In this document: one piece after another, positions 2,423-21,801 of the stretch
Layout of the letters: every line of letters starts with the position of its first letter
How positions within the stretch are numbered: the stretch's first letter is position 1
Source: a virus
Length of the DNA: 41,154 bases
IMG/VR virus record: IMGVR_UViG_3300019458_000063
Coordinates: 1 to 41,154 of that record
Reading direction: 5' to 3' (one strand)
Position numbers and translations under genes: made by a program
Notes under the pieces: model-generated
Database searches by the model: none
The model's input: the letters and a program-made list of their open reading frames with translations, nothing else
Told to the model about the DNA's origin: nothing

Positions 2423-4038
2423 TTGACCCGATAACCAAAGCAGCGATCCGCAATGCGGCCGATGAGCGCGCGGCCAGCGAGGGGTATTGGTTCGACCCCG
2501 ACGCGGCCGTGCGGGTGGTCGAGTTCTTTCGCCGCTGGCTGAAACACAGCAAGGGGCAATGGGCCGGCAAGCCATTGGAGCTGATGGACTGGCAGCGTGA
2601 GGAGTTGATCTATCCGCTTTTTGGCTGGCGTAAGCCGGGGCGCGACAATCCGCGGCGTCGATTCCGCATCGCGTACGTCGAGTGTCCCAAGAAGAACACC
2701 AAGACGACCACGGGAACGGCGCTGGCCCTCTACATGCTGGTGGGCGACAAGGAGCCGGGGGCGGAAGTATACAGCGTGGCGGTGGACCGCGAGCAAGCGA
2801 GCCTGTCGCATCGCGAGGCTCAGAACATGATCGAGGCCAGCGCCGAGTTGTCGCGCCTGCTGAAGATTCAAAAGACCGCGCACAACATCTACTATCCCGC
2901 GGCCAAGTCATACTACCGTACGCTCTCGAACGAGGCGGCCAGCGCCGAGGGCAAGAACGCCCACTTCGTGCTCAAGGACGAGGTACACGCTTGGCGCGGC
3001 GAGGAGTTGTGGAACAGCTTGCGCTATGCGGGGCGCGCGCGCCGGCAGCCGCTGTCGCTGACCATCACCACGGCGGGCGATAATCCCATGAGTGTGTGCA
3101 AGCAGGAGCACGACTACGCGCGGCGGATCATCGAGGGATCGGCGTACAATCCCGAATACTTCGGCTTGATCTACGCGGCCGACCCCGACGATGATTGGAC
3201 GGATCGCGGGACGTGGGAGAAGGCCAACCCGGCAATGGGCACGGTGTTCACGTGGGAGAGCGTGCAGGGCGACATACAGGAAGCGAAGGACAAGCCGTCG
3301 GCGCTAGCGGCGCTGAAGCGCTATGGCCTCAACATCTGGCTGACTGGCAGCAACCCGTGGCTGTCACCGGACGCCTGGGGGTCGTGCGGCGCGACTTATG
3401 CGGCGGCGGACCTCGAGGGCCGGCGCTGCTGGGCGGGGCTCGACCTGTCGCGGATCACGGACACCACGGCGCTGGCCTTGGTGTTCGAGCCGGACGAGCG
3501 TGGCGCGTGCCGGCAACTGGTCCACTTCTGGCTGCCGAGCGAGGCCGCCGACAAGATGCGCGGCGTGGTGCCCTACCACGAGTGGGCCGTCGACGGCCAC
3601 ATCGAGCTGACCCCCGGCCGCGTGCTCGACTACGAGTTCATCCGCCAGCGGTTCCGCGAGCTGGCCGAGCGGTTCAACATCCTGGGGATGTACTACGACC
3701 CGATCTACGCGGCCGATCTGGTCAAGCAGATGGAGGAGGATACCGGCGTGCCGGCGATCGAGTTCGCACAGACGATCACACTCTTCGCGATGCCGACTGC
3801 CGAGTACGAGCGGCGGATCGTGGCCGGCATGCTCTTGCATAGTCGCAATCCGGTGCTCACTTGGCAGGCTGGGAACGTCGAGGTGAAGGTGGACGTGAAC
3901 CAGAACAAGCGGCCGGTGAAGCCGAAATCACATCAGAAAATTGACGGCATCGTGGCGGGCATCATGGCCTTGCGGGGCTGGTGCGGAGAAGAGAGCGGGG
4001 AGTGCGTGTATGAGTCACGGGGGATTTTGACACTGTGA
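2419..4038 (+). CDS. terL: Terminase large subunit (Terminase_1 / HK97-like)
   Basis: 539 aa from ATG 2419 (MIDPITKAAIRNAADE...). WFDPDAAVRVVEFF...GKPLELMDWQ is a typical N-terminus. The upstream part of track ORF 2113..4038 overlaps terS and is Arg/Ala junk. Confidence 0.9.
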   Translation: MIDPITKAAIRNAADERAASEGYWFDPDAAVRVVEFFRRWLKHSKGQWAGKPLELMDWQREELIYPLFGWRKPGRDNPRRRFRIAYVECPKKNTKTTTGTALALYMLVGDKEPGAEVYSVAVDREQASLSHREAQNMIEASAELSRLLKIQKTAHNIYYPAAKSYYRTLSNEAASAEGKNAHFVLKDEVHAWRGEELWNSLRYAGRARRQPLSLTITTAGDNPMSVCKQEHDYARRIIEGSAYNPEYFGLIYAADPDDDWTDRGTWEKANPAMGTVFTWESVQGDIQEAKDKPSALAALKRYGLNIWLTGSNPWLSPDAWGSCGATYAAADLEGRRCWAGLDLSRITDTTALALVFEPDERGACRQLVHFWLPSEAADKMRGVVPYHEWAVDGHIELTPGRVLDYEFIRQRFRELAERFNILGMYYDPIYAADLVKQMEEDTGVPAIEFAQTITLFAMPTAEYERRIVAGMLLHSRNPVLTWQAGNVEVKVDVNQNKRPVKPKSHQKIDGIVAGIMALRGWCGEESGECVYESRGILTL

Positions 4039-4605: not shown

Positions 4606-4814
4606 AGTGTTACAAGTGCGGCAACGAAATGGCGCTAGTGCAGCGATACTATGTGTGCCCCGTGTGCAAGCCGAAAGTGTGTGTTGTACTCTCGCCAGAG
4701 GCCAGAGAGCGATGCGCGCGACTCAGCAGATTGTATCAGCGAGTCAATCGGCTGGTTGAGACGACGATGAGACATCTCAATGCGGAGGAGCGATGCAATG
4801 CTGGACAGCGTTGA
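4602..4814 (+). CDS. Small zinc-ribbon protein
   Basis: MKCYKCGNEM...YVCPVCKP gives a CxxC...CxxC pair; in frame with track ORF 4500..4814. Confidence 0.55.
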   Translation: MKCYKCGNEMALVQRYYVCPVCKPKVCVVLSPEARERCARLSRLYQRVNRLVETTMRHLNAEERCNAGQR

Positions 4815-5127
4815 ATTATTCGGCGGGCCATGCGACGGCGCGGCCGTGCCGAATCGCGGCGAGAGCGCGATCGCGGTCTCGATCGCACCGTGGCCGCGGC
4901 CACTGAAGGCGCTGATGGATCTGGCGTCGGAGCAGGGCGTAGTTTTTCGCGCGTATAAGGACGGCGCGCTTTGTTGCCGGCCAGGGCCCGACTACTTGCC
5001 GAAGGACTTAGCGCGGGGCCTGCGTCGGCATCGCACGGCGATCTGGAAACACTTTCGCGGCAGCCGGTTGGCCGTCTATCAGGTGCGCGAGCACCGCGGA
5101 CAGTTCGCTGGATATTATTCGGACTAG
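4798..5127 (+). CDS. Hypothetical protein
   Basis: Track ORF 4780..5127; the second ATG (4798) is preceded by GGAGGAG at the right spacing. Confidence 0.5.
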   Translation: MLDSVELFGGPCDGAAVPNRGESAIAVSIAPWPRPLKALMDLASEQGVVFRAYKDGALCCRPGPDYLPKDLARGLRRHRTAIWKHFRGSRLAVYQVREHRGQFAGYYSD

Positions 5128-18150: not shown

Positions 18151-18516
18151 TTGAGATGCCAATTCTTACAATCCTCTGCGAAAGACCGCCAGTATAAGTG
18201 TGTCGTCTGCGGCTATGTCTGTCGTTCTCCGTTCTCATCAGAACGCATTTTTCGCAACTGCCCGTCTCAACAAAATACCACGCTTCCTCCCCTCTCAGAT
18301 CGAATTACTTCTTTCGCCGCCGCCTCGTCTCGTCATGCGGCCAATGGATTCCGCGAACGCAGCGAGCCAGAAATCCGACACATCGTGGCCATCTGCGACG
18401 CGTGTCCGCATTACAAGGACGGCCGCTGTCTCAAGTGCGGCTGTAAGGCCACCGGGAAAGGACACTTTGACAAGATCCTCTGGGAGTCGGAGCACTGCCC
18501 AATCGGGAAATGGTAG
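18151..18516 (+). CDS. Zinc-binding-like small protein (CxxC motifs, C-terminal CPIGKW)
   Basis: 121 aa; CVVCGYVC...ICDACPHYKDGRCLKCGCKA...HCPIGKW; non-ATG (TTG) start, so the 5' end is uncertain. Confidence 0.45.
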   Translation: MRCQFLQSSAKDRQYKCVVCGYVCRSPFSSERIFRNCPSQQNTTLPPLSDRITSFAAASSRHAANGFRERSEPEIRHIVAICDACPHYKDGRCLKCGCKATGKGHFDKILWESEHCPIGKW

Positions 18517-18540
18517 GGGGCAGTGGCTGGGCGGCCCATG

Positions 18541-18580
18541 AAAAAAAGGCCGGCCGCGGGATTGCTCGCCGCGACCGGCC
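18541..18580 (-). terminator. Rho-independent terminator of the leftward operon, between convergent operons
   Basis: ggccggccgcg...cgcgaccggcc forms an 11-bp stem with one mismatch. On the minus strand it is followed by U7 (plus-strand aaaaaaa 18541-18547). Confidence 0.7.
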
Positions 18581-18598
18581 CGAACGAAAGGGCGAACC

Positions 18599-18994
18599 TT
18601 AGGACAATTCCTCGGCGGGCAGGTCCGCGATGCACTCGGCCGCGAGCGTGGGCCAGCGGTCGGCGTCATCAGCGTGGTGCTCGGCCGCCGCGATGTCGCG
18701 GCAGACATCATTCACCGCCGCGCAGATGTCTGCGCCAGATGGTAGCAGCACTCCGCGTTTCGCGGAGTAGCCCCGCGCTCCTTGGTGCAGGGTCTCGTAC
18801 CTGTAGACCGCGTAGACGATCGACCTCCCATCGTAGTGCTGGCGAACGCCGGCAAACCAACGGCTCTTGACGCTCGCTTGATACTCGACCTGGCTGTCAT
18901 GCTCCAGGTCTTCTACGGCGGCCAGCAGAGGCCACGTGTCGTCGTCGATCTTGACCGGTGGCCGGTCGGTCAGTGTGATGGTGCGATGTGGCAT
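18599..18994 (-). CDS. Hypothetical protein (last gene of the leftward operon)
   Basis: 131 aa, MPHRTITLTDRPPVKIDDDTW...; AGGAGA ribosome-binding site upstream. Confidence 0.6.
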   Translation of the reverse strand: MPHRTITLTDRPPVKIDDDTWPLLAAVEDLEHDSQVEYQASVKSRWFAGVRQHYDGRSIVYAVYRYETLHQGARGYSAKRGVLLPSGADICAAVNDVCRDIAAAEHHADDADRWPTLAAECIADLPAEELS

Positions 18995-19090
18995 TGTCAG
19001 ATCTCCTGTTGCGCGATGATGCCTCGCGCGAGGCTCCGACGAGTTACTCCGTCGGCGGAGTTGCGCCCCGGCCCTAACGAAAGGGCTCCG

Positions 19091-19366
19091 CTATTCGGTC
19101 ACCATTTCTTTGACGGCTCTTATTCCAGCGAGCCGCATGCTGGCCACGAATGTGGCGCTGGCGACATCGGGCATGTGAGCCTGGAAGGCTGCGTTGGCAT
19201 CCGTCAGCGCCGATTCCATGCAGGCGCTGATGTGGCCCGTGAGAGTCGTCAGCAACTTATCTCGATCGAGACTCGATCGATCAATGTTATGCGCCCGCAG
19301 GTACTCCGCGGCACCTTCAAGCGCGCTCGCGCAGGCGACATCGATGAACGTGTCGGTCTCGTTCAT
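19091..19366 (-). CDS. Hypothetical small protein (91 aa)
   Basis: Start moved to MNETDTF (ATG 19366), which follows the conserved ACACGAAAGGGAAAACC leader. Confidence 0.55.
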   Translation of the reverse strand: MNETDTFIDVACASALEGAAEYLRAHNIDRSSLDRDKLLTTLTGHISACMESALTDANAAFQAHMPDVASATFVASMRLAGIRAVKEMVTE

Positions 19367-19387
19367 GGTTTTCCCTTTCGTGTTTGC

Positions 19388-19448
19388 GCCCAGGAAATAT
19401 ACCACAGATGTATAGGTTTCGTCGCCTGCCGGCGGCTCGTCAGCGGGC
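19388..19448 (-). ncRNA. Hammerhead-like element, copy A (core intact, stem III imperfect)
   Basis: Minus strand: GCCCG CUGACGA GCCGCC-GGCA-GGCGAC GAAA CCUAUAC-AUCUGUG-GUAUAUUUC C UGGGC. Confidence 0.3.
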
Positions 19449-19449
19449 T

Positions 19450-19623
19450 CTACTCACTCTCCGCCGGGGGGACCCACGTTCGATCATCCGCATAAGCGCG
19501 GCAGCGGCAGGTGTCTGGATCGATCGATCCGGTACACTCTCCAGCCTCTTCCCGATGCAATTCCCACGTCGCGAAGTCCGGCAGAAAACCTCCACAGCAA
19601 GCGCAAGTTCGTGTCTCGGTCAT
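19450..19623 (-). CDS. Small Cys-rich protein (57 aa)
   Basis: MTETRTCACCGGFLPDF...; ATG 19623 follows an AGAAAGGAAAAAC leader. Confidence 0.5.
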   Translation of the reverse strand: MTETRTCACCGGFLPDFATWELHREEAGECTGSIDPDTCRCRAYADDRTWVPPAESE

Positions 19624-19686
19624 GTTTTTCCTTTCTTTTTTGTTCACCCCGGACCGGCCGCCGTGGCCGGTCTCGCCGCCTGCCCG

Positions 19687-19881
19687 TCAACTGCGCACGT
19701 GCGCGATGATCTCTCCATCCACTTCGATGTTGCCGTAGCCCCCCACCCGATCGAGCCAGCGCTCGAAGGAGTCGACATCCCGGACATACTTGGGCACGTC
19801 GCTCTGCGCGAGAGCTTCGCACAGATCGTGGGCCTCGATTGTCTCGGTTCCGCTGTCGGTCGTAATGTAGTAGGTTCGCAT
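19687..19881 (-). CDS. Small acidic hypothetical protein (64 aa)
   Basis: MRTYYITTDSGTETIEAHDL...; follows a CGAAAGGGAAAGACG leader. Confidence 0.55.
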   Translation of the reverse strand: MRTYYITTDSGTETIEAHDLCEALAQSDVPKYVRDVDSFERWLDRVGGYGNIEVDGEIIAHVRS

Positions 19882-19930
19882 CGTCTTTCCCTTTCGTTCG
19901 TTTTTTTTTGCGCTCGCCCCTCAGCGGGAC

Positions 19931-20164
19931 TCACCCGATCTGCCAGTGGTACGTGCCATCTGGTCTCTCGACATCGCCGGAGCCTGTGTAGCGCCCGGCG
20001 TCTTGAGGTTCCGCGTCAATCGCATCTTGGATCGCCTCATAGGTTTCGTCGCTCGCATCCTGGTTCGGCCCCAGCATGGACGCGCAGATGATCTCGCCGT
20101 CACTGTCGATCATGCCCTCTCCGCTCCACACTCCGTCATGATAGATCGTGATCTTGGTTCTCAT
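19931..20164 (-). CDS. Small acidic hypothetical protein (77 aa)
   Basis: Start at MRTKITIYHDG (ATG 20164) after an ACACGAAAUGGAAAACG leader; the upstream part of track ORF 19931..20296 covers the spacer element. Confidence 0.55.
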   Translation of the reverse strand: MRTKITIYHDGVWSGEGMIDSDGEIICASMLGPNQDASDETYEAIQDAIDAEPQDAGRYTGSGDVERPDGTYHWQIG

Positions 20165-20222
20165 CGTTTTCCATTTCGTGTTTGCGCCCCGGACCGCCCG
20201 CGGCAGCTCATCAGCGTGATAA

Positions 20223-20519
20223 TCATACCAGCCGCCAGTCCCCAAATCCGAACAGAATCCCCTTCGCGTGCCCGGTGTGCAGCACACACCAACCACTGGC
20301 GCCGAGTCGATTGGCCAGCTTCACGAGCTCGGTGCAAGAGCGTGTCGGGTGTGCCTCGACTGCGAGGCCGTCGCGACCGTGCACCATCATCCAGCCCAGC
20401 ACCCCCTTTGAGTCCTGGATTGTCCAGTAGCCTGGCCGTTTTGACTTCACAGTCATGTCCAGATTATTCGCCACGCTCTCGGCCTCGCGGAGAATCGCGC
20501 CCGCTGCTTTGCTCGCCAT
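20223..20519 (-). CDS. Hypothetical protein (98 aa)
   Basis: Start at MASKAAGAILRE (ATG 20519) after an ACACGAAAGGGAAAAAAG leader. Confidence 0.55.
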   Translation of the reverse strand: MASKAAGAILREAESVANNLDMTVKSKRPGYWTIQDSKGVLGWMMVHGRDGLAVEAHPTRSCTELVKLANRLGASGWCVLHTGHAKGILFGFGDWRLV

Positions 20520-20542
20520 CTTTTTTCCCTTTCGTGTTTTCG

Positions 20543-20602
20543 CCCCAGACCTACACCGAAGTGGTGTAGGTTTCATCGACTGCCGGCGGCTCATCAGCGG
20601 GA
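20543..20602 (-). ncRNA. Hammerhead-like element, copy B (best copy; type-I topology, GUC cleavage triplet)
   Basis: Minus strand: UCCCG CUGAUGA GCCGCC-GGCA-GUCGAU GAAA CCUACACC-ACUUC-GGUGUAGG UC|UGGGG. Stem III is 9 perfect base pairs (20571-20563 with 20549-20557). Confidence 0.5.
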
Positions 20603-20833
20603 TAACGCTGTCGCAAATTTTTCCTCGCCATCCGTGTCGCTTATGTCGTGAGCCTCGCCCGTTGCGCTGTATCTGCCGTTGCTCTGCTGGATTCTCTCCA
20701 TCCATCCGCGCTTGCTTCGTCGCACTTGGTGCATGTGCACTCCGCCGGCGGAGCGCTGGTCTTGCGCCACGTCGTGCGTGTAACCAGTGATGCTGTAGGT
20801 GTTCCAGTTTTTTCTTTGGATTTTCGCGGTCAT
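20594..20833 (-). CDS. Hypothetical small protein (79 aa)
   Basis: MTAKIQRKNWNTYSITGY...; its UGA stop lies inside the CUGAUGA of element copy B. Confidence 0.55.
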   Translation of the reverse strand: MTAKIQRKNWNTYSITGYTHDVAQDQRSAGGVHMHQVRRSKRGWMERIQQSNGRYSATGEAHDISDTDGEEKFATALSR

Positions 20834-20855
20834 CGTCTTTCCCTTTCGTGTTTGG

Positions 20856-20912
20856 CCCCGGAACTATAACCGATGTGTAGGTTTCGCCGCCCGCCGGCGT
20901 CTCGTCAGCGGG
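20856..20912 (-). ncRNA. Hammerhead-like element, copy C (core intact, stem III imperfect)
   Basis: Minus strand: CCCG CUGACGA GACGCC-GGCG-GGCGGC GAAA CCUACAC-AUCG-GUUAUAGUU C CGGGG; starts right after the stop of the upstream gene. Confidence 0.3.
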
Positions 20913-21188
20913 CTAGATTCTCACCGCTCCAATCACGCGGCAATCGCCCGTGCTGGCGACGCGCAGATCGTCGAGGCGACACTCGATCTGTTCGCCCTCG
21001 TCTCCTTCAGACCAGCAGACCAGTCCGGCGAGTTCTCCCTGTTCCTCGTCTCCCCACCAGCCGCCGTCGACGAATTCGGCGTTCTCGATCTCGTTTTGCG
21101 GCTCCCAGCCAACGGGCTCGCACCAGCGGGCGCCGGCGATCGAGCTGCGGTGCTGGAGGATCACGGTGAGTGTCTTCGTTTCGTCCAT
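20913..21188 (-). CDS. Strongly acidic small protein (91 aa), first gene of the small-gene operon
   Basis: My count is 20 Asp/Glu against 7 Lys/Arg; WWGDEEQGELAGLVCWSEGDEGEQIE. Confidence 0.55.
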   Translation of the reverse strand: MDETKTLTVILQHRSSIAGARWCEPVGWEPQNEIENAEFVDGGWWGDEEQGELAGLVCWSEGDEGEQIECRLDDLRVASTGDCRVIGAVRI

Positions 21189-21230
21189 CGCATTTCCCTT
21201 TCGTTCTTGTTGCCCCTCACATCTATATAT

Positions 21231-21259
21231 ACTATACGCTGCGGCGAAGGAATAGTCAA
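21231..21259 (-). promoter_or_regulatory. Sigma70-like promoter for the leftward small-gene operon
   Basis: Minus strand TTGACT (21259-21254), 17 nt, TATAGT (21236-21231), in an AT-rich spacer about 45 nt upstream of ATG 21188. Confidence 0.6.
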
Positions 21260-21296
21260 CAACAATCCGAAAAGAATTCCAAAATAGTTGTAAACC

Positions 21297-21482
21297 CTAC
21301 CCCTGTATAGACTTAGGTCGACCATTTCGCCGCTCGATACGGGCAAAGTCGAGGACGTCCTGGCGCTCGAAGGCCAGTCGGCCGGCAAATCGGCTCGACG
21401 GCAGCCGCCCCGCGGCGGCGAACTGCTCGACCCGGCGCATGGAGACTCGAAGAATCTTCGCGGCCTCGAAACATCTAATCAT
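21297..21482 (-). CDS. Excisionase/AlpA/MerR-type helix-turn-helix DNA-binding protein
   Basis: 61 aa; AAKILRVSMRRVEQFAAAGRLPSSRFAGRLAFERQDVLDF fits the HTH_17/excisionase-family pattern. Confidence 0.65.
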   Translation of the reverse strand: MIRCFEAAKILRVSMRRVEQFAAAGRLPSSRFAGRLAFERQDVLDFARIERRNGRPKSIQG

Positions 21483-21519
21483 GGATCGTATACCCCAAAG
21501 GTAAACAATTCAATGGGCC

Positions 21520-21801
21520 TCATTTGCTTAACTGTTGCTGCAATTCGCGAAGAAATGACTCTAGAGCGCTGGATTCCTCAATCGACAGGAATGGCACAAT
21601 CACCTGGAAAATAATCACGAACCACATCGTGGCTAGGACCGCAGCGAGGATCGCAGCGAGGATCGCGGCGAGGCTCAAGTTCACCGTGCTCTGGATCTCC
21701 TTGAGGGATTTTTGCACGGACTCCATGCTCTTCTGAAAGTTCTTGTCGCTCGTCAGGACGGCCTCCTTCATCTTCAGGGCTTCTCGGGGCGGGGCGCTCA
21801 T
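21520..21801 (-). CDS. Small membrane protein (one TM helix encoded by 12-nt repeats)
   Basis: 93 aa with LSLAAILAAILAAVLATMWFVIIFQVIV; AAGGAGA ribosome-binding site; AT-richer than its surroundings. Confidence 0.55.
   Translation of the reverse strand: MSAPPREALKMKEAVLTSDKNFQKSMESVQKSLKEIQSTVNLSLAAILAAILAAVLATMWFVIIFQVIVPFLSIEESSALESFLRELQQQLSK
21629..21676. repeat. 4 x 12-nt tandem repeat (gcagcgaggatc) inside the membrane-protein gene
   Basis: gtggctaggacc / gcagcgaggatc / gcagcgaggatc / gcggcgaggctc. Confidence 0.8.

What the first reader, a model, noticed from the sequence alone, without database searches (positions are those of the whole stretch)
19624..20222. Deletion variants and an 'empty site' form of the same spacer element show that it is modular
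The other spacers in the operon look like the same unit with internal pieces removed.
- **20185-20218:** UCACG CUGAUGAG CUGCCGCGGGCGG UC CGGGGCG. The CUGAUGAG and ...GGUC-YGGGGCG ends are kept, but GAAA and stem III are missing.
- **19640-19686:** UUGACG and GGCAGGCGGCGAGAC are kept (compare CUGACGAG and GGCAGGCGACGAAAC). They are followed by a perfect 8-bp hairpin, GACCGGCC-ACGGC-GGCCGGUC, that ends in GUC-CGGGG.
- **19882-19930:** CCCGCUGA is joined directly to GGGGCGAGCGCAAA..., so the two stem I halves abut with nothing between them.

This pattern suggests an insertion and decay history, or a selfish RNA/DNA module spreading between cistrons. Simple shared regulatory sequence explains it less well.
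Basis: inference. Interest (0 to 1): 0.65.

Follow-up and report, generated by a model that had tools for sequence, protein, structure and literature searches.

The report
Decayed hammerhead ribozymes between phage genes
The three odd spacers are broken-down copies of a self-cutting RNA (a hammerhead ribozyme) that punctuates a phage early operon, a known arrangement seen here decaying while the translation leader next to it is kept.

Summary
On the minus strand, one promoter (21259-21231) drives eight small ORFs. Seven of these ORFs start behind the same leader, GGGGCG-AAACACGAAAGGGAAA-ATG.

Three spacers (A 20912-20856, B 20601-20543, F 19447-19389) are full-length type I hammerheads. They belong to a widespread phage family, CCCG-CUGAnGAG-stem II-CGAAAC-stem III-GUC|CGGG-leader. 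That family has more than 119 stretches in IMG/VR, arrays of 8 or more per contig, and strong covariation.

The three spacers in the finding derive from this unit by internal deletion:
- **C** lost GAAA and stem III.
- **D** keeps only CCCG-CUGA joined to GGGGCG.
- **E** lost 7 nt, carries C3U and A13G, and keeps a perfect stem III.

None of the three can retain the catalytic core.

Even A, B and F are damaged. Their hammerhead fold lies 3.6-7.3 kcal/mol above the minimum free energy, whereas 82% of 92 family units have a difference of 0. A close relative carries B with a perfect stem II.

Related phages show the ribozyme travelling with the upstream ORF, and recombination breakpoints fall in the shared leader. 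So "decay" and a degree of "modularity" are supported. A selfish insertion module with an empty target site is not supported, because D still contains four core nucleotides.

This is a known kind of system; interest is moderate.

The parts
21231..21259 (-). Sigma-70-like promoter (TTGACT-17-TATAGT) of the early operon. It is the only promoter-like site in 18400-21600, and no terminator-like site lies inside the operon.
21189..21216 (-). Primary-transcript leader GGGGCAACAAGAACGAAAGGGAAAUGCG ahead of o1 (21188-20913). It has the same design as the leaders that follow the ribozymes.
20856..20912 (-). Spacer A. This is a full-length type I hammerhead (CCCG CUGACGA stem II GAAA stem III UUC|CGGGG) directly after the o1 stop codon. 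The core is intact. It has an A.G mismatch at 10.2/11.2, a C.U mismatch at 15.2/16.2 and a poor stem III. Leader 20860-20834, o2 ATG at 20833.
   Evidence: R1 38.2 bits; Rfam Hammerhead_1 13.2 bits, below threshold; ddG 7.3 kcal/mol
20543..20601 (-). Spacer B. This is a full-length type I hammerhead, and the o2 stop codon is the UGA inside CUGAUGA. It has a perfect 9-bp stem III and GUC|U, but stem II is broken (GCCGCC GGCA GUCGAU). The L177 orthologue has GCCGCC GGCA GGCGGC. Leader 20547-20520.
   Evidence: R1 32.0 bits; RAGATH-1-hammerhead 17.8 bits
20185..20219 (-). Spacer C (in the finding): UCACG CUGAUGAG CUGCCGCGGGCGG UC CGGGGCG. Stem I, the CUGAUGA core and the stem II hairpin are kept. 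G12-A14 and all of stem III were removed by one deletion of about 24 nt. Leader 20191-20165, o4 ATG at 20164.
   Evidence: 0/2000 shuffles; 11.9 bits, 19 model positions deleted
19915..19928 (-). Spacer D (in the finding): CCCG-CUGA joined to GGGGCG. Everything from N7 to C1.1 is deleted. The remnant folds as a 5-bp hairpin with the loop GCUGA. Leader 19920-19882, o5 ATG at 19881.
19647..19690 (-). Spacer E (in the finding): UUGACG (C3U, which also supplies the o5 stop codon UGA). A9 and the 5' half of stem II (7 nt) are deleted. Then GGCAGGCGGC, GAGAC (A13G), a perfect stem III GACCGGCC-ACGGC-GGCCGGUC (19672-19652), and C-GGGG. Leader 19651-19624, o6 ATG at 19623.
   Evidence: 8.4 bits; the same hairpin lies at another junction in L177
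19389..19447 (-). Spacer F. This is a full-length type I hammerhead after o6. The core is intact. It has a C.A mismatch in stem II, two C.U mismatches at the base of stem III (UUUC pairs with GAAA in the MFE fold) and a C.U mismatch in stem I. Leader 19393-19367, o7 ATG at 19366.
   Evidence: R1 28.5 bits; ddG 4.5 kcal/mol; L178 orthologue
18995..19090 (-). Spacer G: hairpin GCCCU-UUCGUU-AGGGC (19086-19071), then CGGGGCGCAA (19070-19061, the start of the leader), then unrelated sequence up to o8. It has no significant similarity to the hammerhead. The relative L178 diverges right after the hairpin.
18599..21188 (-). Eight small ORFs: o1 21188-20913, o2 20833-20594, o3 20519-20223, o4 20164-19931, o5 19881-19687, o6 19623-19450, o7 19366-19091, o8 18994-18599. 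None has a Pfam or PHROG match. For o2 and o7, dN/dS against relatives is 0.20 and 0.25.

Best explanation
The minus-strand early operon of this phage (probably a phage of Planctomycetota) was built from cassettes of the form [common leader + RBS] - ORF - [3' type I hammerhead].

**Ancestral function (inferred).** In the ancestral state each hammerhead cut the polycistronic transcript at GUC|C. The upstream mRNA was left ending in the stem II and stem III hairpins with a 2',3'-cyclic phosphate. The downstream mRNA was left starting with a 5'-OH on a standard leader, GGGGCG-AAACACGAAAGGGAAA-AUG. That leader copies the 5' UTR of the primary transcript.

**Present state.** In this phage the ribozyme part is decaying.
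- C lost G12-A14 and stem III in one deletion.
- D lost everything between CUGA and the 3' strand of stem I.
- E lost A9 and half of stem II, and carries C3U and A13G.
- These three cannot self-cleave. This follows from the established requirement for the hammerhead core. Consequently o3-o4-o5-o6 stay on one RNA.
- A, B and F keep the core but carry stem-breaking substitutions, so they probably cleave poorly or not at all (inferred).

**What is retained.** The leader is kept at all seven junctions because it is the translation-initiation region. The GC-rich stem III of E may persist as a simple 3' stabilising hairpin (inferred).

**Gene exchange.** Between related phages, ORF + trailer cassettes are exchanged by recombination in the shared leader. 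This is why the same downstream gene can be found with a full hammerhead, a remnant, or a bare hairpin in front of it.
For: **Identity of the unit**
The model search found 8 copies in L209 and 12 in L262.
- In 42 aligned units, 97.8% of cells are paired against 76.7% in shuffles. There are 116 cells with a change on both sides against 30.5 in shuffles.
- Model R1 built from these units finds A, B and F at 38.2, 32.0 and 28.5 bits (E 2e-6 to 2e-4). It finds C and E as partial matches with the expected blocks missing.

**Derivation by deletion**
- L177 carries, upstream of the o2 orthologue, UUGAC-CGACCGGCCACGGUGGCCGGUC-CGGGGCC. This is the E-type spacer with 13 further bases removed.
- An analogous deletion variant sits in an unrelated phage array: L251 9376-9405, UAACCCGCUGACGAGCUUACCGGCGGGACGCAAA.

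**Decay of the full-length copies**
- The hammerhead-constrained fold is 7.3, 3.6 and 4.5 kcal/mol above the MFE for A, B and F. In 92 family units, 82% have a difference of 0 and 96% have 2 or less.
- Pairs 10.2/11.2 and 15.2/16.2 are Watson-Crick in 42 of 42 family members. They are mismatched in A, B and F (10.2/11.2) and in A and F (15.2/16.2).
- The L177 copy of B has a perfect stem II. Grafting that stem into window B brings the difference to 0.
- The two L178 changes in F both weaken stem II, and there is no compensating change.

**Leader retention**
- Seven copies against 0.15 expected. The primary 5' UTR has the same design.
- There is one promoter and no internal terminator.

**Cassette exchange**
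- L177 has a different first gene between an identical promoter + leader and the o2 leader. L178 diverges after the o7 hairpin.
- o2 + B and o6 + F stay linked in the relatives.
- In the healthy family L221/L236/L237, the gene MKVYTLKN keeps its 3' hammerhead although the downstream gene differs. The gene MKMNPRQ has a hammerhead + leader in L236 but a leader only in L221, and homology starts inside the leader.
- In 36 of 92 family units a stop codon directly abuts CCCG, against about 5% expected.

**Literature**
- Clustered hammerheads flank genes in prophages, and processing of long transcripts was proposed (PMC3088659).
Against: - No cleavage was measured. The loss of activity in A, B and F is inferred from secondary-structure energetics only. 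Weak stems can be tolerated in vivo, and Perreault et al. note slow phage variants that might be regulated.
- The spacers diverge less than synonymous sites. F shows 4 changes in 94 nt against dS 0.118. B shows 4 in 33 nt against dS 0.282. This hints at some constraint or at gene conversion rather than free neutral decay. The numbers are small.
- Only two short contigs are close relatives, and none covers the C, D or E junctions. The ancestral intact state at those three junctions is therefore inferred from paralogous copies, not seen at orthologous sites. o5 has no homologue, and o4 homologues sit in other contexts without hammerheads.
- D is not detected by the model.
- The reference set used for the model and for the covariation count was pre-filtered for at least 4 contiguous pairs in stems II and III. 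The unfiltered set of 92 was used for the ddG distribution.
Confidence: 0.75

Rival explanations
1. The variants are not junk but functional alternatives. The operon uses a mix of junction types (cleaving ribozyme, slow or regulated ribozyme, plain hairpin, no structure) to set which cistrons share an mRNA and how stable each piece is. Under this view the E hairpin and the small D hairpin act as 3'-exonuclease barriers or RNase III sites.
For: - The E hairpin is perfect (8 bp). It recurs with identical arms and one loop change at a different junction in L177.
- Hairpin-only intercistronic spacers followed by a conserved leader are common in related early operons: L188 at about 1800-1860, and L191 and L185.
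- In healthy arrays hammerheads flank blocks of genes, not every gene (PMC3088659).
- The spacers diverge less than synonymous sites.
Against: - Apart from the E stem III, the remnants keep useless fragments of the ribozyme (CUGAUGAG in C, CUGA in D, GGCAGGCGGCGAGAC in E). A designed hairpin junction would not need these.
- Predicted folds of C and E are no more stable than shuffles (z -0.35 and -0.31).
- The substitutions seen between close relatives break pairs and are not compensated.
Confidence: 0.17
2. The hammerhead unit is a selfish mobile RNA/DNA module that inserts between cistrons, and D is an unoccupied (empty) target site.
For: - The copies share stem sequences, not just the functional core, so they have a recent common origin.
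- Presence or absence upstream of the same gene occurs between relatives.
Against: - D keeps CUGA (C3-A6 of the core), so it is a deletion product.
- No copies of the unit or its leader lie elsewhere in the 41-kb genome fragment.
- There are no terminal repeats or target duplications at the unit ends.
- In every with/without case the upstream ORF is also different, and the ribozyme stays with its upstream ORF.
- No empty-site form was found in 2.4 Mb of hammerhead-bearing phage DNA (both strands counted) apart from D.
Confidence: 0.05
3. The resemblance is only shared stop-codon and RBS context plus chance, or it is an assembly artefact across repeats.
For: - Parts of the remnants do overlap coding or stop signals. 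UGA of UUGACG is the o5 stop codon, and UGA of CUGAUGA is the o2 stop codon.
- D alone is short (14 nt).
Against: - Shuffle tests, the leader count and the model alignment of C all argue against chance.
- An assembly from a different source, the Logan contig of run SRR7811943, carries the same spacers.
- Homologous spacers occur in L177 and L178 from other samples.
Confidence: 0.03

Closest known systems
Clustered hammerhead ribozymes flanking genes in prophage and phage operons (Perreault et al. 2011, PMC3088659)
   Same: - Several same-strand hammerheads sit between small phage genes of varying identity.
- Processing of a long transcript into gene-length mRNAs was proposed.
- The paper notes that some copies may be non-functional and that "cryptic mutant hammerheads" occur in repeated elements.
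- The window's copies share the architecture of more than 119 IMG/VR stretches.
   Different: - Here no copy is fully canonical, and half of them are deletion remnants.
- All copies fall below Rfam gathering scores.
- The conserved post-cleavage leader and the linkage of each ribozyme to its upstream ORF are shown here. The passages of that paper that I read do not mention them.
Rfam Hammerhead_1 (RF00163) and RAGATH-1-hammerhead (RF03152)
   Same: The order of elements is the same: stem I 5' strand, CUGAnGA, stem II hairpin, GAAA, stem III hairpin, UH, stem I 3' strand. A and B give weak matches (13.2 and 17.8 bits).
   Different: - The scores are far below the gathering thresholds of 34 and 56.3 bits.
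- Canonical relatives (L127, L158, L165) are also missed at gathering threshold, so the Rfam models fit this short-stem-I phage subfamily poorly.
Synthetic ribozyme insulators such as RiboJ (recalled from my own knowledge, not checked here)
   Same: A self-cleaving hammerhead placed upstream of an RBS gives every cistron the same defined 5' end and leader regardless of upstream context.
   Different: - This is a natural element, repeated within one operon, and here mostly inactivated.
- The functional parallel is inferred, not tested.
Conserved boundary or linker sequences at gene junctions that mediate mosaic recombination in tailed phages (recalled from my own knowledge)
   Same: Unrelated genes are swapped between relatives, and the breakpoints fall in short conserved intergenic sequences.
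   Different: Here the conserved joint is a ribozyme-associated translation leader repeated up to 7 times in one operon.

Membership tests
Hammerhead ribozyme, type I | 5' core C3-U4-G5-A6-N7-G8-A9 | tested here: inconclusive
   The result differs by copy.
- Present in A, B, F and C as CUGA(C/U)GA.
- D has only CUGA.
- E has UUGACG, that is C3U with A9 deleted.

Hammerhead ribozyme, type I | 3' core G12-A13-A14 followed by the A15.1-U16.1 pair and the cleavage site H17 | tested here: not met
   For the three spacers of the finding:
- C lacks GAAA entirely.
- D lacks it.
- E has GAGA (A13G), although GAC...GUC|C is intact.
A, B and F do have GAAA + U-C.
Hammerhead ribozyme, type I | Three helices (I, II, III) around the core with no mispair next to the core | tested here: not met
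   - C has stems I and II only.
- D has stem I only.
- E has stem III only.
- A has mismatches at 10.2/11.2 and 15.2/16.2.
- B has G.U at 10.1/11.1 and a broken stem II.
- F has two C.U mismatches at the base of stem III.
- The hammerhead fold is 3.6-7.3 kcal/mol above the MFE, against 0 for 82% of 92 family units.

Hammerhead ribozyme, type I | Score at or above the Rfam gathering threshold | tested here: not met
   No match in the window at gathering threshold. The best sub-threshold matches are 17.8 and 13.2 bits.
Hammerhead ribozyme, type I | Significant match to a covariance model of the phage CCCG/CGGG subfamily (homology) | tested here: met
   - Met for A, B and F (38.2, 32.0 and 28.5 bits; E 2e-6 to 2e-4).
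- Marginal for C (11.9 bits) and E (8.4 bits).
- Not met for D.
- Family members typically score 50-73 bits.

Hammerhead ribozyme, type I | Site-specific self-cleavage giving 2',3'-cyclic phosphate and 5'-OH ends | not testable with these tools
   This needs in vitro transcription or end-specific RNA-seq.
Hammerhead-punctuated phage operon (Perreault 2011) | Several same-strand hammerheads flanking single genes or short gene blocks in a phage genome | tested here: met
   - Three full-length copies and three remnants lie between eight ORFs behind one promoter.
- The phage context is shown by capsid, tail and helicase genes.
Mobile (selfish) insertion module | Copies at dispersed, non-homologous sites | tested here: not met
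   The unit and its leader occur only in the operon.
Mobile (selfish) insertion module | Defined ends (terminal repeats or target duplication) | tested here: not met
   The spacer alignment shows no terminal repeats or target duplication at the unit ends.
Mobile (selfish) insertion module | Empty sites free of element sequence | tested here: not met
   - D contains CUGA of the core.
- With/without cases always involve a different upstream ORF.

The most novel reading that the evidence does not exclude
Phage early operons of this type are assembled from exchangeable cassettes, [ORF + 3' self-cleaving ribozyme or its remnant], joined by a common post-cleavage leader. The leader is both the translation-initiation region and the homology used for recombination. 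The RNA processing site and the DNA recombination joint therefore coincide. Ribozymes come and go with the ORF they trail. This would be an integrase-free, integron-like gene-shuffling system. The window would show its end state, in which ribozymes decay once they are no longer needed.
Probability: 0.3. Interest if true: 0.6.

Novelty: new member of a known kind. Interest (0 to 1): 0.4.

Why it matters
The biological role of bacterial and phage hammerheads is still open (PMC6765202). This operon is a natural experiment on that question.

- The ribozymes have been inactivated in several independent ways while the adjoining leader is kept at every junction. This suggests that cleavage is dispensable in this phage and that the leader is the selected part.
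- Together with the mosaic relatives, it suggests a testable rule. The hammerhead belongs to the 3' end of the upstream gene cassette, and the shared leader is the recombination joint.
- It is also a practical warning. Rfam thresholds miss this whole phage subfamily, including canonical members.

Tried and rejected
- **Rfam scans.** Scans at gathering and relaxed thresholds found no usable hammerhead hit in the window. They also missed canonical hammerheads in relatives.
- **Exact leader search in IMG/VR.** It gave only scattered single matches that I take to be chance hits, and no close relative.
- **E-hairpin pattern in IMG/VR.** No match.
- **tblastn of o1-o7 against 127 loci holding o8 homologues.** No hits, so o8 relatives do not share the upstream genes.
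- **Protein searches.** o5 is an orphan. Contigs with o4 homologues (7 look-ups) carry other spacers and no hammerhead, so they could not show the ancestral state of C and D.
- **MAFFT alignment of window copies with distant type I hammerheads.** It misaligned stem III and was abandoned. I built the model from a length-homogeneous IMG/VR set instead.
- **Spacer G as a further remnant.** Not supported statistically.
- **Split or trans-acting hammerhead made from C plus E.** Considered and rejected, because neither supplies an intact GAAA.
- **E hairpin as an intrinsic terminator.** Rejected: no U tract, and no terminator-like site was found.
Full report
**Setting**

The window is a 41-kb phage genome fragment with 60% G+C. 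It carries capsid, connector and tail genes on the plus strand and helicases further on. A 99.985% identical contig from run SRR7811943 confirms the sequence. That contig differs in the operon by one base, 20173 T/G, in a leader.

On the minus strand, a single sigma-70-like promoter (21259-21231) with no internal terminator-like site precedes eight small ORFs, o1-o8 (21188-18599).
- Public gene callers call seven of the eight on this strand; o6 is not called.
- Against close relatives, o2 and o7 show dN/dS of 0.20 and 0.25.
- None of the eight ORFs has a Pfam or PHROG match.
- Homologues of o8 occur in Phycisphaerae and Planctomycetaceae genome bins, so the host is probably a planctomycete.

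**The observation**

The spacers upstream of o2-o7, and also the 5' UTR of the primary transcript, end in the same leader, GGGGCG-(C)AAACACGAAAGGGAAA-n-AUG. It occurs seven times, all in this operon, against 0.15 expected.

Upstream of the leader, spacers A (after o1), B (after o2) and F (after o6) read CCCG-CUGA(C/U)GAG-stem II-CGAAAC-stem III-U(U/C)C|(C/U)GGGG. This is the order of a type I hammerhead.

Spacers C, D and E share parts of this unit.
- Similarity of C to the full copies beat all 2000 shuffles.
- D was reached by 11-26 of 2000 shuffles, and E by 11-21 of 2000 (against A and F).
- Spacer G is not significantly similar.
- CCCGCUGA occurs five times on this strand of the window, four of them in these spacers.

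**What the unit is**

Rfam gives nothing at its thresholds and only 13-18-bit sub-threshold matches to Hammerhead_1 and RAGATH-1-hammerhead. Many form arrays of 3-6 exact matches per contig, and the model search raises this to 8 copies in L209 and 12 in L262.

In each of the nine arrays printed, the element is followed by a leader, RBS and ATG, and in most the leader is shared across the array.

The family shows clear covariation in stems II and III.
- 97.8% of cells are paired against 76.7% in shuffles.
- 116 cells have a change on both sides against 30.5 in shuffles. The 42 sequences were pre-filtered for at least 4 contiguous pairs.
- Stem I covaries in array members that my pattern did not select: CCCU/AGGG and CCCCA/UGGG.

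In 36 of 92 units a stop codon directly abuts CCCG, against about 5% expected.

This is the arrangement described by Perreault et al. 2011: multiple hammerheads flanking genes or short gene blocks in prophages. That paper proposed processing of long transcripts and cautioned that some copies may be inactive (PMC3088659). A 2019 review still lists the function as unresolved (PMC6765202).

A covariance model built from the IMG/VR units (R1) was run on the whole window without filters.
- A, B and F take ranks 1-3 (38.2, 32.0 and 28.5 bits).
- C takes rank 4 (11.9 bits), aligned as a hammerhead with the GAAA + stem III block (19 model positions) deleted.
- E takes rank 8 (8.4 bits), aligned over stem II, GA(G)A and stem III.
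- D is not reported.
- Family members usually score 50-73 bits.

**Anatomy of the three variants**

C equals copy A or B with one internal deletion of about 24 nt, running from the end of stem II to the U before C17. It keeps the 5' core and the stem II hairpin but has no G12-A14 and no stem III.

D keeps CCCG-CUGA and then runs straight into GGGGCG. Everything from N7 to C1.1 is gone. The remnant folds as a 5-bp hairpin.

E equals copy F with three differences:
- a 7-nt deletion (A9 plus the 5' strand of stem II);
- C3U, which creates UUGACG, whose UGA is the o5 stop codon;
- A13G.

E is followed by a different, perfect stem III (GAC CGGCC ACGGC GGCCG GUC) and C-GGGG.

G12, A13, A14 and A9 are essential for hammerhead catalysis. 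This is established knowledge, reflected in the rejection criteria of PMC3088659. None of the three variants can therefore be an active ribozyme.

**The "intact" copies are also damaged**

I forced the core to be unpaired and the A15.1-U16.1 pair to form, and compared that energy with the MFE. The hammerhead fold lies 7.3 (A), 3.6 (B) and 4.5 (F) kcal/mol above the MFE. In 92 unfiltered family units the difference is 0 for 82% and 2 or less for 96%.

The pairs 10.2/11.2 and 15.2/16.2 are Watson-Crick in 42 of 42 family members. In the window, 10.2/11.2 is mismatched in A, B and F, and 15.2/16.2 is mismatched in A and F.

Two short contigs from other samples are close relatives.
- L177 carries the o2 orthologue followed by a copy of B with a perfect stem II (GCCGCC GGCA GGCGGC). 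Window B differs by three stem-breaking substitutions. Putting the L177 stem into window B makes the hammerhead fold the MFE.
- L178 carries F with two further substitutions that weaken stem II and no compensation.

So decay is ongoing in this lineage.

One caveat applies. These spacers diverge less than synonymous sites of the neighbouring genes: 4/94 against dS 0.118, and 4/33 against dS 0.282. Some constraint or gene conversion therefore cannot be excluded.

**Modularity**

L177 has the same promoter and first leader as the window, then an unrelated 95-aa gene instead of o1. Next comes the spacer UUGAC-CGACCGGCCACGGUGGCCGGUC-CGGGGCC-leader in front of o2. That spacer is an E-type spacer with a further 13 nt removed, at a junction where the window has hammerhead A. 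Homology to the window resumes at UCCGGGGCC, which is at the cleavage site.

L178 diverges from the window immediately after the hairpin that follows o7, runs into a hairpin followed by a run of eight T (read as a terminator), and has a convergent gene in place of o8.

B stays with o2 and F stays with the end of o6 in the relatives.

The same rule is visible in a healthy hammerhead array family, L221/L236/L237.
- The gene MKVYTLKN keeps its 3' hammerhead although the next gene differs.
- The gene MKMNPRQ is preceded by a hammerhead + leader in L236 but by a leader only in L221, with homology starting inside the leader.
- L221 8387-8430 is a hammerhead-less spacer that still begins UAA-CCCG.

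An internal-deletion remnant like C also exists in an unrelated array, L251 9376-9405.

The ribozyme therefore behaves as the 3' trailer of the upstream ORF, and the shared leader behaves as the joint at which ORF + trailer cassettes are exchanged.

This accounts for the appearance of "with and without the insert" without any transposition. No copy lies outside the operon. D still contains four core bases. No other empty-site form was found in 2.4 Mb of hammerhead-bearing phage DNA, both strands counted.

**How it most likely works**

Shown:
- homology of C, D and E to a bona fide hammerhead family;
- loss of essential core elements;
- structural weakening of A, B and F;
- retention of the leader;
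- mosaic exchange with breakpoints at the leader.

Inferred:
- The ancestral hammerheads cut the early transcript so that each cistron received the same 5'-OH leader, matching the primary 5' UTR. The same resemblance appears in L188. The upstream fragment ended in protective hairpins.
- In this phage cleavage has become dispensable, so o3-o6 (and perhaps the whole operon) stay polycistronic.
- The GC-rich E hairpin may survive because a plain hairpin still stabilises a 3' end. Hairpin-only spacers with conserved leaders are common in related operons.

**Verdict**

This is a degenerate member of a known arrangement. It is of moderate interest as a natural loss-of-function series and as a lead to a cassette rule for ribozyme-punctuated phage operons.

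Noticed in passing
L151 3292-3358 (+); L158 5417-5472 (+): Rfam-significant Twister-P5 ribozymes (58 and 53.5 bits) lie in loci that carry o8 homologues. In L158 the twister sits directly after the o8 homologue, and a canonical type I hammerhead sits directly before it (4772-4816). The o8 family is thus a ribozyme-associated gene family.
   Followed up: partly
L130 about 1811, 2844-2930, 4134 (+): A unit is repeated three times: GAAA-hairpin-UA-hairpin-CUGAUGAG-GCAGGUUCC. It looks like a type II hammerhead array upstream of an o8 homologue. Rfam did not report it at gathering threshold.
   Followed up: no
L185 809-944 and 1940-2066; L186 1-131 and 1127-1253: Structured intercistronic elements of about 125 nt are repeated. 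Each has a 10-12-bp outer stem (CCGGCCGCGG/CCGCGGCCGG, with one covarying pair, C-G versus U-A), a conserved CCCCAUYGAAGNUGAG, and a second hairpin before the RBS. They have no Rfam match at E<=1 and are a candidate unclassified RNA motif flanking o4 homologues.
   Followed up: partly
L058, L059, L060, L065, L116 (for example L065 1766, 2108, 4814, 5669, 6545, 7027, 10345): A different repeated intergenic element (AACTTAATGCCTCGGG...GGCGTATTGGGT) occurs 3-7 times per locus around o8 homologues. L058 and L065 gave no Rfam hit at gathering threshold. Its nature is unknown.
   Followed up: no
IMG/VR hammerhead arrays, for example L221 6020-6060 and L309 6028-6060: In several healthy arrays the post-cleavage leader starts with the stem I 3' strand CGGG and contains a downstream CCC(C) (CGGGAUGCAAUCACGCCCC, CGGGUAAUAAUGCCC). 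After cleavage it could therefore fold into a 5'-terminal hairpin. The window's leader has no such partner.
   Followed up: no
window 20594-20596 and 19687-19689; L188 1301-1303: The stop codon of the upstream ORF is sometimes the UGA inside the hammerhead core CUGA (o2, the E remnant for o5, and gene 2 of L188). In 39% of family units a stop codon directly abuts stem I. Terminating ribosomes would then cover the ribozyme's 5' half, a possible coupling of translation and cleavage.
   Followed up: partly
window 18528-18588 (-): A weak match (18.1 bits, E 0.24, far below the threshold of 46.7) to the Rfam c4-a1b1 family (targets of the P1/P7 C4 antisense RNA) lies just downstream of o8. It is a GC-rich double hairpin and is probably a chance match or a 3' structure of the operon.
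   Followed up: no
window 20173: The leader of o4 reads GAAAUGG in the window but GAAAGGG in the otherwise identical contig L049 and in all other leader copies. This is a single variant, or an error, in the putative RBS.
   Followed up: yes
L183 about 3200-3232: An unrelated phage that carries an o4 homologue uses nearly the same RBS-proximal leader (CGCAAACGAAAGGGAAAGAC-AUG) after its own promoter. The ACGAAAGGGAAA motif may therefore be a general translation-initiation signal in this host group and not something specific to the ribozyme unit.
   Followed up: no
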